Shown here: in pieces, positions 1 to 3,647 of the stretch
Numbering within the stretch: position 1 is the first letter of the stretch
How the letters are laid out: each line of letters opens with the position of its first letter
DNA from: Planococcus sp. (in: firmicutes)
GTDB taxonomy: Bacteria; Bacillota; Bacilli; Bacillales_A; Planococcaceae
Direction: 5' to 3'
Length of the DNA: 41,235 bases
NCBI GenBank assembly: GCA_035461045.1
Contig: DATHVY010000177.1
Coordinates: forward strand, 1-41,235
Position numbers and translations under genes: made by a program
The notes under the pieces: model-generated
The model's input: only the letters and a program-made list of their open reading frames with translations
Database searches by the model: none
Told to the model about the DNA's origin: nothing

Positions 1-116
1 TGAAATCCTGTGCGATGAGTGCCTACCTATCCGGCGTAAACCCCTTTGATCAGCCAGGCGTCGAATTCTATAAACAAAATATGTTCCAATTACTCGGTAA
101 ACCCGGGTATGAATAG
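1..116 (+). CDS. pgi: glucose-6-phosphate isomerase, C-terminal fragment (5' truncated by window)
   Basis: Frame 3 reads [37 protein letters not shown]; NPFDQPGVE-x-YK is the PGI C-terminal signature; TAG at 114-116. Confidence 0.93.
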
Positions 117-124
117 AAGAGAGT

Positions 125-168
125 AAAAAAACCCCCAAAGCTCTCAAGTGAGCGTTTTGGGGGTTTTT
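125..168. terminator. bidirectional intrinsic terminator between convergent pgi and the pro-peptide gene
   Basis: AAAAACCCCCAAA-GCTC...GAGC-g-TTTTGGGGGTTTTT hairpin flanked by A and T runs. Confidence 0.85.
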
Positions 169-184
169 GTATTAGTGGAGTTTA

Positions 185-517
185 TTAAACGGTTTTGTTT
201 GCGCTCCAAGGCTCGGTAACGCGGTAACCAACGGCGACATCAGAACGAGTACTCCAAGGCTCGGTAACGCGGTAACCAACGGCGACATCAGAACGAGTAC
301 TCCAAGGTTCGGTAACGCGGTAGCCAACGGCGACATCAGAACGAGTATTCCAAGGCTCGGTAACGCGGTAGCCAACGGCGACATCAGAACGAGTATTCCA
401 AGGTTCAGTGACACGGTAGCCAACAGCAGTATCATAGCTTTCAGTTGAATTATCAAGGATAGCTAATGAAGACAAAGCAAGTGCGGATGAAAACGTTAAT
501 ATTAAAATTTTTTTCAT
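185..517 (-). CDS. secreted signalling pro-peptide (Phr/NprX/PapR-like) with five tandem AVGYRVTEPW cores
   Basis: AGAGGAG RBS; ATG overlaps the receptor TGA (ATGA); Sec-type signal MKKILILTFSSALALSSLA; 16-aa repeats; double TAA stop; lies directly downstream of an HTH-TPR gene. Confidence 0.85.
   Translation of the reverse strand: MKKILILTFSSALALSSLAILDNSTESYDTAVGYRVTEPWNTRSDVAVGYRVTEPWNTRSDVAVGYRVTEPWSTRSDVAVGYRVTEPWSTRSDVAVGYRVTEPWSANKTV
204..433. repeat. 48-bp coding tandem repeat, about 4.8 units
   Basis: Units start at 204, 252, 300, 348, 396; unit 1 = unit 2 = CTCCAAGGCTCGGTAACGCGGTAACCAACGGCGACATCAGAACGAGTA; no spacers. Confidence 0.98.
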
Positions 518-1821
518 TGAATTTCACTCCTCTTTTTATTCACAATTAAGTTTTGAAAGGCTTGTTTTGCTATTTTTAAAGATTCTGAAGACTTTTTATA
601 TTCACCTAACTCGTAATATACATCTCCTAATAAGGCATAATAATAACCTATCTCATAAAAATTATTATTTAACTTTAAACTAGGTATTAGTTTGTCAACC
701 ACGAGTTCCTCAAATTCAATATAATTTTCTTGAATCAAATTATACAAAGCCATAATTTCTAAGTAACCTTCTTTAAAAGCTTGGTTAGTAGGTGAATCAA
801 AATTTAACTTATTGACCTTAATTATTTCTACCCCTTTTTCTGCCCAATTAAGAGCCTCTGAAGAATTTTTTAATTCAACATTACACTTAATCAAAACACA
901 ATGACTGAGCAAAATGTCAGCGGTATACTCTTTTGGTATATAACTTAATGTATGTTTCATATGCTCGAGAGAGGCTTCGTAGTCTTGTAAAAGATAGTAA
1001 GTATAAGCTAAATTAAACTCAGTTGTAAACCTAATGACATCATTTTCTAGTTTTCTGCCAATTGTGTATGCATTTAAATAGTGTTCTGCAGCTAGTTTAA
1101 AGTTTCCAAATTGAAATTGAGCCAGAGCGATATTTGAATGGCACTCTACAATCCGTTTCGGTATAAATTCCTGCTGATAAATTTTCAAAGCCATTTCTGA
1201 ATACTTACTTGCCATCTCAGTTTCCCAGCATTGTGCGGATGATATTCCGATCGAGTAGTAGAGATCTCCCATTTCTGAAGCTGGAATTGTTGGAGGTGCA
1301 ATCTTCTCAGCCATTAAATAAGTTTTTAACGCTGAATCATGATCGTTTAAAAGATAATGGTAGTTGCCCAAATATTTATGATACAGGTAATACTGTTCCT
1401 GGTTCATGAATTCTTGGAAACGATACATTTCTTTTATCTTGTCTTCCGCACTGTCCAGATCCCCCGTAATGATGAAATACCGTATTTGCTGGATTGAATA
1501 TTCAAGCTCTACGTCTTCATGGGAGTGCAGTAACGGGTGGTCATGGATATCAGCATAATGCTCCATGATTTTTCCTTTATTTTGTGGGTGAAGCAAAGAT
1601 GATTTGAAATTTTTAACAAGTACTTTGCCTACGGGGTTATCTTTGGGCGCCAGTGGTATGTTTAGTCTTTTGCAGAGCTGTTCTAAAATATCGAGTGAAG
1701 GTTCTTTATCACCCGTTTCATACTTTTTGAGATCTTTTACGGAAAGGATCTCGGAAGCAGTTTCTTCCAGACTCATGCGTTTTTTAAGTCGCTGGTATTT
1801 TAGGCGCATTCCAGTATTCAT
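514..1821 (-). CDS. RRNPP-family (NprR-like) peptide-sensing transcriptional regulator, N-terminal XRE HTH + TPR repeats, ~435 aa
   Basis: MNTGMRLKYQRLKKRMSLEETASEILSVKDLKKYETGDKEPSLDILEQLCKRL = XRE HTH; several TPR-like helices (YLGNYHYLLNDHDSALKTYLMA, LYYSIGISSAQ, SNIALAQFQFGNFKLAAEHY, FNLAYTYYLLQDYEASLEH, LLGDVYYELGEYKKS); start placed at 1821 behind GAAAGGAG RBS (ORF track starts at 1953). Confidence 0.85.
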   Translation of the reverse strand: MNTGMRLKYQRLKKRMSLEETASEILSVKDLKKYETGDKEPSLDILEQLCKRLNIPLAPKDNPVGKVLVKNFKSSLLHPQNKGKIMEHYADIHDHPLLHSHEDVELEYSIQQIRYFIITGDLDSAEDKIKEMYRFQEFMNQEQYYLYHKYLGNYHYLLNDHDSALKTYLMAEKIAPPTIPASEMGDLYYSIGISSAQCWETEMASKYSEMALKIYQQEFIPKRIVECHSNIALAQFQFGNFKLAAEHYLNAYTIGRKLENDVIRFTTEFNLAYTYYLLQDYEASLEHMKHTLSYIPKEYTADILLSHCVLIKCNVELKNSSEALNWAEKGVEIIKVNKLNFDSPTNQAFKEGYLEIMALYNLIQENYIEFEELVVDKLIPSLKLNNNFYEIGYYYALLGDVYYELGEYKKSSESLKIAKQAFQNLIVNKKRSEIQ

Positions 1822-2253
1822 TGGCTCTCTCCTTTCCGCTTTCATGGGGAGGACTTCCATCATCCATGTAGGAGAGTTGGACTCAAACTTTCTCGAGCTT
1901 TCCGATAAGTAAGATACCGAAAGTTTGTTTAATACGATATTTTCCACCTCCATAGACTTCAGTATACTTTAAACTTATATCTTTAATCCATGATATCATC
2001 AATTTTCAAAATAAACTGCATATTTATTTACCTAATTATGTATTTTTTTAAAAGGGTATTTAGTACCTACAAGATGGCTGCCTGAATAATTATCTATTTT
2101 AACTGGGTTAAATGTATTTCAAGGCTTAGTAACAAGCCATTGAAGCTTCAGGAATTTGTAGGTAAAAGCATTCTTATTCGATAATTTTAAAAAAGGATAA
2201 GCATGGCGACATAGGAAGAAAGTTGTCTGCTGAAATTGCGTTTTCCGCGGGAC

Positions 2254-2280
2254 GTTTTCAAAAACCTCTGTTTGGGGTAA
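2254..2280 (+). promoter_or_regulatory. putative SigB promoter
   Basis: GTTTTC-N15-GGGTAA upstream of a general stress protein gene. Confidence 0.6.
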
Positions 2281-2321
2281 AGATTTCTTAAAGAGTTTAA
2301 AAAAATGGAGGTAGTTTATTT

Positions 2322-2651
2322 ATGGGGTCAGTGAAAAGAGTTTTGGCGTTAGTCCACCATGTAGATGAATTGAAAAGTGAAATTGATAAATTGAAAACCC
2401 AAGGGTTCAAGGAAGAAGAGTTGAATCTGATTGCACAAGATACGGATCGCTTAGAGCAGTTTGAAAGGGATTCCGAAATTACTGCCGTAGAAGCAGGATC
2501 CTTCAAAGATCAATTCAAAAGCTTTATTACAGGAGAAAGCAGTGTACGTGAAGGATTGAAGACACTGGATTTATCAGAACAGGAACTTGAAGAATATACC
2601 AGGGATGTGGCGAGAGGCAGCATTTTGGTATATGTGGACATTGACGTATGA
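2322..2651 (+). CDS. general stress protein, YflT/17M-like domain
   Basis: GGAGG RBS; IDKLKTQGFKEEELNLIAQD...FKSFITGE...L..L.L...E.EEY..DV.RGSILV pattern typical of YflT-like domains. Confidence 0.75.
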   Translation: MGSVKRVLALVHHVDELKSEIDKLKTQGFKEEELNLIAQDTDRLEQFERDSEITAVEAGSFKDQFKSFITGESSVREGLKTLDLSEQELEEYTRDVARGSILVYVDIDV

Positions 2652-2683
2652 TCGGAATCGCTGCTTGCTAAGCATAATTGCAT

Positions 2684-2710
2684 GTTTTATCCCCTTACTT
2701 GAAAGGGTAC
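2684..2710 (+). promoter_or_regulatory. putative SigB promoter
   Basis: GTTTTA-N15-GGGTAC. Confidence 0.6.
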
Positions 2711-2747
2711 ATAATCGATAAGACGATAAACAGGAGGCTGATTTAAA

Positions 2748-3647
2748 ATGAAGTCAACAGATCGTGAAATTGAAGTAGTATACACACAGAATGAACTCGA
2801 AAACAAAATAGAGGAAATGAAGTCATGGGGCTATAATTCCAATGAAATCAAAGTATTGGCCAATGATTCGGATATCCTGAATTCGGTAGAAACTCAAACC
2901 GGGGTTCAGACCAAAGAAACAGAAACACTTGGCAGCAAATTCAAATCATTTTTTACCGGGGAAGACGCAGCGCGGGCCGAACTTTCAAAACTGAATTTGA
3001 ATTATGCGGAAGTGGATGATTATCAAAAGGCACTGGACAATGGCGGGCTTATTCTTTACACCGATCACCGAACAGAAAACCGTACCGGAGACCAGTTCAA
3101 GCGTAATACGGCTTTCGCGCCTTTTGGCCGCGATGTTGAACGGGATGGTAATAAGTTCGACGACCCGAAAATTGTCGATAGGGATGTAAAAGCGGATATC
3201 AACCAATCAAAAAAGGATTCCGGAGAAATTTACACAACTGAAGTTAGAAGAGAAGATCAGCACGGCCAACCTGGATATGCTGACAAGACACAGGATTCCC
3301 GTATGAAAGGTGAAAGCATTCATCCGACTGGTGATTCCAATAAAGACCAAGGTTCATTGAAAGAAAAAAGGATGGATCATGAACCTAACCTGGAGACAGA
3401 TGAGGGAGACCGCAACTTGAATCGGGAAGAAGGAGTCAATAAACGACAGGACGAACCTTCACCTGGCAACGATCTGAATTTGGGGCCTGCACCTTTTGGA
3501 AGGGACTCCGAAGAGCAACATCTGGTTAACAAAGAAAAGAAACGCAGAGAATTCGAAGAAACTGAAAGCCCTCCACATGAGCAAAAGAATATACGCGATG
3601 AAGTTGATAAAAAGATGGATACGCAAAGCACGCCAAGGCTCTTCTAA
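2748..3647 (+). CDS. general stress protein: YflT-like N-terminal domain plus long charged, probably disordered tail
   Basis: AGGAGG RBS; N-terminal ~105 aa paralogous to 2322-2651; C-terminal ~190 aa rich in D/E/K/R/Q/G. Confidence 0.75.
   Translation: MKSTDREIEVVYTQNELENKIEEMKSWGYNSNEIKVLANDSDILNSVETQTGVQTKETETLGSKFKSFFTGEDAARAELSKLNLNYAEVDDYQKALDNGGLILYTDHRTENRTGDQFKRNTAFAPFGRDVERDGNKFDDPKIVDRDVKADINQSKKDSGEIYTTEVRREDQHGQPGYADKTQDSRMKGESIHPTGDSNKDQGSLKEKRMDHEPNLETDEGDRNLNREEGVNKRQDEPSPGNDLNLGPAPFGRDSEEQHLVNKEKKRREFEETESPPHEQKNIRDEVDKKMDTQSTPRLF

What the first reader, a model, noticed from the sequence alone, without database searches (positions are those of the whole stretch)
185..1821. 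RRNPP-type quorum-sensing cassette with a five-core polyprotein signal precursor (AVGYRVTEPW x5)
Seen: an XRE-HTH + TPR gene (514-1821) whose TGA overlaps the ATG of a 110-aa ORF. That ORF has a Sec signal peptide, a short acidic linker, then D-[T/V]-AVGYRVTEPW-[N/S] five times (TRS spacers, SANKTV tail), closed by a terminator. Known: RRNPP systems (Rap-Phr, NprR-NprX, PlcR-PapR, AimR-AimP) have this receptor + downstream secreted pro-peptide layout, but precursors are usually ~40-50 aa with one mature peptide; duplicated cores are reported for some Phr precursors. Asn residues in the TPR helices (SNIAL, FNLAY) fit the peptide-backbone-binding Asn of this family. The 'VA' before each core recalls the VA preceding SAIRGA in phi3T AimP. 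Inference: the precursor is cut into up to five identical signals (candidates VGYRVTEPW, YRVTEPW or VTEPW), giving built-in signal amplification. I do not recognise this peptide from any characterised system.
Basis: partly seen in the sequence, partly recalled or inferred. Interest (0 to 1): 0.88.

Follow-up and report, generated by a model that had tools for sequence, protein, structure and literature searches.

The report
Planococcus multi-copy peptide quorum-sensing cassette
A DNA-binding receptor gene sits directly upstream of a small gene with an export-type signal sequence and five copies of one short peptide; this is likely a cell-to-cell signalling pair of a known family, found across the genus Planococcus with 3 to 14 copies, and a five-copy relative is already listed in a published table.

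Summary
Observation confirmed: a 435-aa HTH+TPR gene (514-1821, minus strand) overlaps a 110-aa ORF (185-517) with a signal-peptide-like start and five AVGYRVTEPW copies, closed by a terminator. The receptor's fold is closest to NprR, then Rap, and keeps the family's peptide-binding Asn, but it lacks NprR's key Arg126: NprR-like, not NprR proper. It occurs in 56 of 56 same-genus genomes. All 50 complete precursors carry 3-14 cores ending in PW. Within arrays the last seven core residues show 88 synonymous and 0 non-synonymous variants, and the receptor's C-terminal half diverges with the core while flanking genes do not. The likely mature signal is the 9-mer VGYRVTEPW. Release, binding and targets are untested; co-folding was unavailable. 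Novelty is lower than claimed: identical multi-copy propeptides (up to 6-8) and the amplification idea are published, and a five-copy Planococcus orthologue is in a 2022 supplement. Not found in my searches: genus-wide fixation up to 14 copies, the peptide boundaries, and a conserved receptor leader (in-frame Ile-codon start plus a hairpin predicted to hide the main ribosome site).

The parts
514..1821 (-). Receptor gene, 435 aa: XRE-type HTH (about residues 3-58) followed by 18 helices (9 TPR-like pairs); NprR-like RRNPP receptor
185..517 (-). Propeptide gene, 110 aa: MKK + hydrophobic stretch (Sec-type signal by heuristic), acidic linker, five cores in 16-aa units, SANKTV tail; start overlaps the receptor stop
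398..427 (-). Core copy 1 (AVGYRVTEPW; preceded by D-T)
350..379 (-). Core copy 2
302..331 (-). Core copy 3
254..283 (-). Core copy 4
206..235 (-). Core copy 5, followed by a 6-aa tail, so even the last core is internal
527..532 (-). Shine-Dalgarno-like GAGGAG of the propeptide gene, inside the receptor's last codons
   Evidence: sequence
127..168 (.). Terminator hairpin flanked by A/T runs, between the propeptide gene and the convergent pgi 3' end
   Evidence: z -6.59; for pgi
1827..1833 (-). Main Shine-Dalgarno AGGAGAG, 5 nt before the receptor ATG
1870..1876 (-). Anti-Shine-Dalgarno CTCTCCT, complementary to the main site; predicted to pair with it
1822..1938 (-). In-frame 39-codon leader beginning at ATC (1936-1938); candidate non-AUG start; predicted disordered if translated
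1947..1951 (-). Upstream Shine-Dalgarno-like GGAGG, 8 nt before the ATC
1990..1998 (-). Candidate extended -10 element (TGATATCAT) in a conserved block; no consensus -35 in front of it
   Evidence: inference
2054..2068 (.). Conserved imperfect palindrome AGGTA-N5-TACCT type, about 247 nt before the ATG; candidate operator

Best explanation
This is likely an RRNPP-type quorum-sensing cassette: an HTH+TPR receptor gene overlaps a downstream gene carrying five identical peptide cores, and the precursor is predicted to be exported and cut into several copies of one signal, most likely VGYRVTEPW. Shown: the two-gene layout, the NprR/Rap-like predicted fold, fixation of the cassette across the genus, strict selection on the core sequence, and co-variation of the receptor's C-terminal helices with the core. 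Inferred from NprR, PlcR and Rap biology: Sec export; cleavage after the conserved [Q/E/D]-[V/L/F/I]-Ala and after PW; re-import through an oligopeptide permease; binding in the TPR groove with N270 holding the peptide backbone; a change in DNA binding by the HTH. More signal per precursor would lower the cell density needed to switch. Targets are unknown; the only candidate site found is a palindrome before the receptor's own promoter, which would suggest autoregulation.
For: Fold: pLDDT 91.7; top Foldseek hit apo NprR 5DBK E 7e-10, then Rap proteins; best natural profile hit NprR 4GPK E 4e-15 over residues 74-414. N270 = NprR N275, present in 47 of 47. Receptor in 56 of 56 same-genus genomes; 50 of 50 complete precursors have 3-14 cores; 50 of 50 precursors examined have a basic start and a hydrophobic stretch. 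Within arrays: last 7 core residues 88 synonymous / 0 non-synonymous variants, rest of the unit 95 / 49. Hydrophobic-Ala 7-9 residues before the PW end in 36 of 36 distinct units against 7.9 (maximum 15) in 2000 shuffles; Q/E/D before it in 32 of 36, a position not selected for. Among pairs with at least 93% identity in residues 1-190, C-half identity is 0.87-0.99 for the same core (16 pairs) and 0.54-0.88 for different cores (62 pairs), while five flanking gene families show no such gap. The excess divergence is patchy (181-210 and 271-390, little at 211-240), and 181-210 aligns with an NprR peptide-contact helix. A V/A change at the ninth residue from the end goes with C-half identities of 0.63-0.81, which points to a 9-mer. 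Seven family-5 peptide-binding proteins in the genome. Precedent: both identical copies of Phr105 are released by proteases (PMC11343458 section 10).
Against: No binding, processing or expression data. NprR's carboxylate-binding Arg126 is Gly in 47 of 47, N194 is Ser and N306 is Asp (46), so the binding mode must differ from NprR; the mapping rests on an alignment at about 18% identity. Genome pairs are not independent, and the C-half lies next to the peptide gene, so co-transfer can explain part of the co-variation. No single receptor column separated V- from A-starting cores. The hydrophobic-Ala motif was defined after seeing the data. Signal peptides were judged by a hydrophobicity heuristic, not SignalP. 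No conserved motif marks the cut after PW. Some arrays are mixed (two or three core variants in L038, L039, L067, L111; deviant first copies in L023 and L091). No regulon was found.
Confidence: 0.78

Rival explanations
1. The signalling pair is real, but copy number is not a tuned amplifier: the array expands and contracts by slippage and is homogenised by gene conversion, and only one or two cores are released efficiently.
For: Copy number ranges from 4 to 14 among 8 genomes sharing the core VQARVPEPW. In Phr105 the internal copy needs particular proteases. Distant relatives have single-core-looking precursors of 56-60 aa.
Against: None of 50 complete precursors has fewer than 3 cores. Internal copies accumulate synonymous but no non-synonymous changes in the last seven residues (88 vs 0), so each copy seems visible to selection (though a mutant copy could be selected against as an antagonist). 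A paralogous cassette is also multi-core.
Confidence: 0.12
2. The repeat protein acts uncut, as a small secreted or surface protein, and the neighbouring regulator merely controls it or is unrelated.
For: At 110-258 aa the precursors are longer than typical propeptides; no conserved C-terminal cleavage motif after PW.
Against: Spacers vary freely in length (units of 13-18 aa) and sequence while the core is fixed; the receptor's C-half tracks the core; the receptor is NprR/Rap-like.
Confidence: 0.05
3. It is a multi-core RiPP-type precursor whose cores are modified into an antimicrobial or other bioactive product.
For: The leader-plus-repeated-core layout resembles multi-core RiPP precursors (recalled).
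Against: Across 45 loci with up to 6 kb of flank no modifying enzyme or exporter is consistently adjacent: upstream are divergent yflT-like genes, brnQ and tagO; downstream are convergent, variable genes (pgi, peptidase C26, an alkyltransferase-like gene) beyond a terminator. The leader is Sec-like.
Confidence: 0.03
4. The receptor acts mainly as Rap proteins do, by binding a response regulator such as Spo0F, and the peptide switches that off.
For: Rap structures score as well as NprR; spo0A and Spo0B-like genes are present in 5 of 5 genomes tested; E188 is kept (47 of 47) and D107 in 36 of 47; two distant relatives appear to lack the HTH.
Against: The HTH region is well conserved (76% mean pairwise identity); NprR Y118 is Gln, Y223 is Phe, R126 is Gly, and D107 is His in this genome, and these residues are needed for NprR's Spo0F function (PMC4970707).
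Confidence: 0.07

Closest known systems
Planococcus orthologue WP_058383341.1 and its five-copy propeptide in Data Set S1 (NprR sheet) of Felipe-Ruiz et al. 2022, PMC9765709
   Same: Same receptor family (recognised by shared motifs such as GMRLKY and HPQNK, not aligned by a tool), same layout, five cores ending RVPEPW.
   Different: Core VKARVPEPW instead of VGYRVTEPW. Only 1 of the 10 orthologue rows there has a propeptide, the main text never mentions Planococcus, and no experiment is reported in what I read.
NprR-NprX of the Bacillus cereus group (PDB 4GPK, 5DBK)
   Same: HTH + 18-helix TPR domain of similar length; downstream Sec propeptide; internal mature peptide of 7-9 residues; N275 equivalent kept.
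   Different: About 18% identity; KRD motif and Arg126 replaced by TGD/Gly; no SKPDIVG-type core; Y223/F225 are F/P; 3-14 cores instead of typically one.
Rap-Phr systems with internally repeated pheromones (Phr105, Phr3T; PMC11343458, PMC5199041)
   Same: One propeptide with several identical pheromone copies; release of both copies shown for Phr105; up to 8 copies reported.
   Different: Rap has no HTH; those pheromones are 5-6 residues with one copy C-terminal; duplication is sporadic and was proposed to be transient there, whereas here it is fixed in every complete precursor seen.
RRNPP_detector subfamily 05 (NprR) entries for Planococcus, PMC10075063
   Same: Three Planococcus chromosomal receptors of similar length are filed under subfam_05_NprR; I did not align them to this receptor.
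   Different: In the rows I could see they are paired at 'loose' level with tiny unrelated ORFs; the tool's default 100-aa cap would exclude 44 of 50 of the precursors found here. The supplement was cut when stored, so a stricter table may hold more.

Membership tests
RRNPP(A) quorum-sensing systems | Receptor of 250-500 aa with TPR motifs | tested here: met
   435 aa; Pfam TPR hits over cut-off; fold matches NprR and Rap; criterion from PMC10075063
RRNPP(A) quorum-sensing systems | Propeptide gene directly adjacent to the receptor gene | tested here: met
   4-nt overlap here; offsets of -16 to +13 nt in orthologues
RRNPP(A) quorum-sensing systems | Small propeptide (50-120 aa in PMC11343458; RRNPP_detector's working cap is 100 aa) | tested here: met
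   110 aa: inside the 50-120 range, above the 100-aa detection cap; orthologues reach 258 aa
RRNPP(A) quorum-sensing systems | Sec signal peptide on the propeptide | tested here: met
   Heuristic only (two or more K/R in the first 8 aa and a hydrophobic 12-mer): 50 of 50; SignalP not available here
RRNPP(A) quorum-sensing systems | Conserved Asn that binds the peptide backbone (NprR N275) | tested here: met
   N270, 47 of 47
RRNPP(A) quorum-sensing systems | Mature peptide is released, re-imported and binds the receptor | not testable with these tools
NprR proper (B. cereus group) | N-terminal HTH plus 9 TPR motifs (18 helices) | tested here: met
   HTH_3; 18 long helices after the HTH in the model; NprR count from PMC4970707
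NprR proper (B. cereus group) | KRD motif with Arg126, binding the peptide's Asp and C-terminal carboxylate | tested here: not met
   Aligns to TGD; Gly120 in 47 of 47
NprR proper (B. cereus group) | NprX-type heptapeptide (SKPDIVG class, conserved Asp) | tested here: not met
   Cores end in [PT]-[EQDHP]-P-W; NprX description from PMC3763537
NprR proper (B. cereus group) | Spo0F-binding and tetramer residues D107, Y118, E188, Y223, F225 | tested here: inconclusive
   H101 (D in 36 of 47), Q112, E183, F219, P221: one kept, one conservative, three changed
Multi-core RiPP gene clusters | Modifying enzymes or a dedicated protease/exporter next to the precursor | tested here: not met
   None consistently adjacent in 45 loci

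The most novel reading that the evidence does not exclude
Planococcus has a core-genome peptide signalling system in which a polyprotein precursor is obligatory and copy number (3-14) works as a heritable gain dial, species sort into some 30 peptide types matched by the receptor's C-terminal helices, the receptor reads a Trp-ended 7- to 9-mer without NprR's Arg126, and receptor synthesis is throttled by an in-frame non-AUG leader start plus an anti-Shine-Dalgarno hairpin, a control I did not find described for an RRNPP receptor.
Probability: 0.3. Interest if true: 0.72.

Novelty: new variant of a known kind. Interest (0 to 1): 0.46.

Why it matters
It offers a natural series for testing the published but untested 'chattering' idea that extra pheromone copies raise signal output: one core occurs with 4 to 14 copies in related genomes. 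About 30 matched receptor-peptide pairs in one genus are a ready set for studying specificity and cross-talk, including cores shared between species. It also shows a blind spot: a 100-aa cap misses most of these precursors. The conserved leader, if real, would be an unusual translational control on a quorum-sensing receptor. The basic architecture is known, and an orthologue is already tabulated, which limits surprise.

Tried and rejected
ESM Atlas search of the precursor: not answered. Expression: no RNA holder listed; this says nothing on expression. Single-sequence PDB search found only LGN/Pins TPR proteins; NprR appeared only with a profile. Pfam and NCBIfam gave nothing over cut-off for the precursor. 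Regulon search: a weight matrix of the palindrome gave 19 intergenic hits in the genome with no evident theme; an exact degenerate pattern in 5 genomes hit the receptor promoter in 4, plus 3 unrelated sites, at counts no higher than the reversed-pattern control; targets remain unknown. CsrA as reader of the leader's ACAUGGAUG (consensus recalled): csrA was found in only 31 of 41 genomes and not in near-complete genomes G007 and G061, which keep the motif; set aside. Rfam: no match in 1-3000. The whole 181-nt leader folds no better than shuffles (z -0.15); only the local hairpin is supported, and it shows no compensatory changes because it is nearly invariant. The 39-aa extension does not fold (pLDDT under 50), so a structured N-terminal domain is rejected. 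pgi as a linkage control failed because it is the neighbour in only 11 of 47 loci and the script stopped; replaced by five other neighbours. Column-wise receptor-core association gave only a 9-mer/7-mer split at position 202 and three-sequence splits that are not independent. Prophage or mobile context: not seen; the site is fixed beside yflT-like genes. Two look-ups in this scan's earlier findings returned nothing.

Full report
Observation. The minus strand carries a 435-aa gene at 514-1821 with an HTH_3 domain and TPR repeats. Its stop overlaps the start of a 110-aa ORF at 185-517, which has a basic, hydrophobic N-terminus and five AVGYRVTEPW copies in 16-aa units (48-bp period, TRF score 379; coordinates). 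A strong hairpin at 127-168 follows (z -6.59), shared with the convergent 3' end of pgi. The five copies all differ at the DNA level. Public contigs match parts of the array but none listed spans it.

Organism and spread. Named homologues are Planococcus, Planomicrobium and Metaplanococcus proteins at 55-68% identity. The receptor was found in 19 of 19 same-genus genomes in a search of 201 and in 56 of 56 in a search of 301, where 65 genomes matched in all. It sits at a fixed chromosomal site: in 44 of 45 loci the nearest upstream gene is a divergent yflT-like gene, with brnQ and tagO beyond; downstream genes are convergent and variable. No modifying enzymes or phage genes are consistently adjacent.

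The precursors. Of 58 distinct full-length genus-type receptors, 50 have a complete downstream precursor; 8 were dropped (4 at contig ends, 3 with N gaps, 1 apparently frameshifted). All 50 have 3-14 cores, most often 6 or 7, and 44 exceed 100 aa. The 13- and 14-copy arrays come from assemblies of 1 and 2 contigs. An earlier subset of 50 receptors, 42 with complete precursors and including three from other genera, gave 30 distinct major cores. Anchored on the end, the pattern is [R/K]-[V/I]-P-E-P-W with PW in 42 of 42. A hydrophobic residue plus Ala lies 7-9 residues before the end in 36 of 36 distinct units, against a mean of 7.9 in shuffles; I defined this motif after seeing the data, but the Q/E/D before it (32 of 36) was not selected for. 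Every last core is followed by a tail of 4 or more residues, so the signal is internal, as in NprX. Comparing copies within each of the 42 arrays (first copies and off-length units left out), the last seven residues show 88 synonymous and 0 non-synonymous variants, the rest of the unit 95 and 49. The repeat is therefore selected as peptide, and most strictly in the core. Some arrays mix N-terminal variants (L038, L039, L067, L111), and two have a deviant first copy.

The receptor. The model is confident (pLDDT 91.7): an HTH followed by 18 long helices. Foldseek ranks apo NprR first (E 7e-10), with Rap proteins close behind and PlcR far lower; a profile of 49 orthologues finds NprR as the best natural protein (E 4e-15). 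Mapping through that alignment (offset fixed from the Y223A/F225A difference between 4GPK and 5DBK) and counting in 47 orthologues: N275 is N270 in 47, Y193 is kept in 46, E188 in 47; but R126 is Gly in 47, N194 is Ser in 46 and N306 is Asp in 45. PMC3763537 (passages) makes N275 common to the family and Arg126, in a KRD motif, essential in NprR. So the protein passes the RRNPP tests I could run and fails the NprR-specific ones: it likely works like NprR but is not NprR proper, although one published survey files its orthologues there.

Co-variation. Mean pairwise identity falls from 76-84% in residues 1-228 to 42-52% in residues 271-425. A quick tree of residues 191-425 groups receptors by core, including the three VG[Y/F/H]RVTEPW carriers (support 95). 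With three long-branch rows left out, core labels need 27 changes on the C-half tree, the minimum for 28 labels by my count, and 30 on the N-half tree. Among pairs at least 93% identical in residues 1-190, the C-half is 0.87-0.99 identical when the core is the same (16 pairs) and 0.54-0.88 when it differs (62 pairs); five flanking gene families show equal identity in both classes. The excess divergence lies at 181-210 and 271-390 with a nearly conserved stretch between, which fits selection on pocket helices better than one swapped block. The pairs are not independent and linkage cannot be excluded. Pairs differing only by V or A at the ninth residue from the end have C-half identities of 0.63-0.81, the main reason for preferring the 9-mer VGYRVTEPW; no single receptor column explained that split.

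An added feature: the receptor's leader. In 61 of 61 distinct orthologue leaders the 43 codons before the ATG have no stop; in 44 tested, the other two frames have stops in 44 and 38, and the next 132 nt upstream in 43-44. An Ile codon (49 ATC, 10 ATA, 2 ATT; never ATG) lies 117 nt before the ATG (120 in one), 8 nt after a GGAGG or GGGGG (pattern matched in 60 of 61). The GTG/ATG that gene callers use five codons earlier overlaps that site and is ACG or GGG in 4 of 44. A CTCTCCT (53 of 61; one-base variants in 8) is complementary to the main AGGAGAG site, whose mean predicted pairing probability is 0.95 against 0.59 with the upstream part shuffled. Against: the whole leader is no more stable than shuffles, there is no covariation, no Rfam match, and the extension is predicted disordered. 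My reading, untested: a weak non-AUG start either yields a 474-aa form or opens the hairpin, keeping receptor levels low or conditional. A palindrome of the AGGTA-N5-TACCT type lies about 247 nt upstream (7-10 of 10 matches in 44 leaders; three best matches fell at other positions) and recurs nowhere else consistently.

Mechanism. Shown: layout, fold prediction, conservation, selection, co-variation. Inferred from NprR, PlcR and Rap biology: co-transcription, Sec export, cleavage after hydrophobic-Ala and after PW, import by an oligopeptide permease (seven family-5 binding proteins in this genome), binding in the TPR groove, altered DNA binding. Up to five signals per precursor would raise output. 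No co-fold could be run, and no RNA run was listed.

What is in print. PMC9765709 (passages, section 7, supplement file 5; file 1 unreadable) reports up to six identical copies, repeats in 17 of 17 unusually long NprR propeptides, and the 'chattering' idea. Its NprR sheet holds 10 rows with this receptor's motifs, one with a five-copy VKARVPEPW propeptide. PMC11343458 (abstract, passages, section 10) shows release of both Phr105 copies and cites up to 8 copies. PMC5199041 (passages) reports duplications in phr and nprX. PMC10075063 (passages; supplement cut when stored) caps propeptides at 100 aa and pairs the Planococcus NprR-subfamily rows I saw with unrelated tiny ORFs. PMC4970707 was read in passages. 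Full-text searches for the core strings, Planococcus with NprR or with RRNPP terms (20 of 49 listed, none holding the word Planococcus), and non-AUG starts (15 of 29 listed) showed no description of this system or its leader; subscription papers and bioRxiv supplements were not covered.

Verdict. A real and well-supported RRNPP-type cassette. The five-copy design is a known kind with an orthologue already tabulated, so 0.88 is too high. The genus-wide fixation up to 14 copies, the different binding residues and the conserved leader make it a variant worth testing. Interest 0.46.

Noticed in passing
window 1822-1951 (-): Conserved in-frame 39-codon leader with its own Shine-Dalgarno-like site and an Ile codon, plus an anti-Shine-Dalgarno predicted to hide the receptor's main ribosome site; seen in 61 orthologue leaders.
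   Followed up: yes
window 2054-2068: Conserved palindrome before the receptor promoter; candidate operator with no second conserved site found.
   Followed up: partly
L107, L108, L109 (G143, G135, G240; matches also in G027, G126): A second, paralogous receptor (30% identity) in some genomes; the three fetched also have multi-core precursors (3-5 PW-ending units, cores such as VIHPNPW and ILWPQPW).
   Followed up: partly
L078/L023 and L024: Relatives outside the genus with 13 and 6 cores whose receptor match starts only at query residue 59 or 31-36; they may lack the HTH, which would make them Rap-like. Not tested with Pfam.
   Followed up: no
L022 (G012): Receptor split into two pieces, followed by a two-core precursor ending in PPPF rather than PW.
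   Followed up: no
L025, L026, L110: Distant receptors (25-27% identity) with 56-60-aa precursors that show no repeat, suggesting the multi-core state is derived.
   Followed up: no
L003, L006, L008, L035, L037, L082, L087, L088: Eight genomes share the core VQARVPEPW with 4 to 14 copies: possible cross-species signal and a natural copy-number series.
   Followed up: partly
L047: Precursor breaks off after two cores at a short contig end; frameshift or misassembly.
   Followed up: no
window 2254-2280 (+) and 2322-3647 (+): Two divergent YflT-domain stress genes; a GTTTTC-N15-GGGTAA before the first resembles a sigma-B promoter (consensus recalled).
   Followed up: no
window 514-1200: The receptor's 3' half is 30% G+C against 39% for its 5' part and 46% for the genome, in keeping with a fast-evolving or exchanged segment.
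   Followed up: partly
window 1-116 (+): 3' end of a pgi gene; pgi is the downstream neighbour in only 11 of 47 loci.
   Followed up: partly
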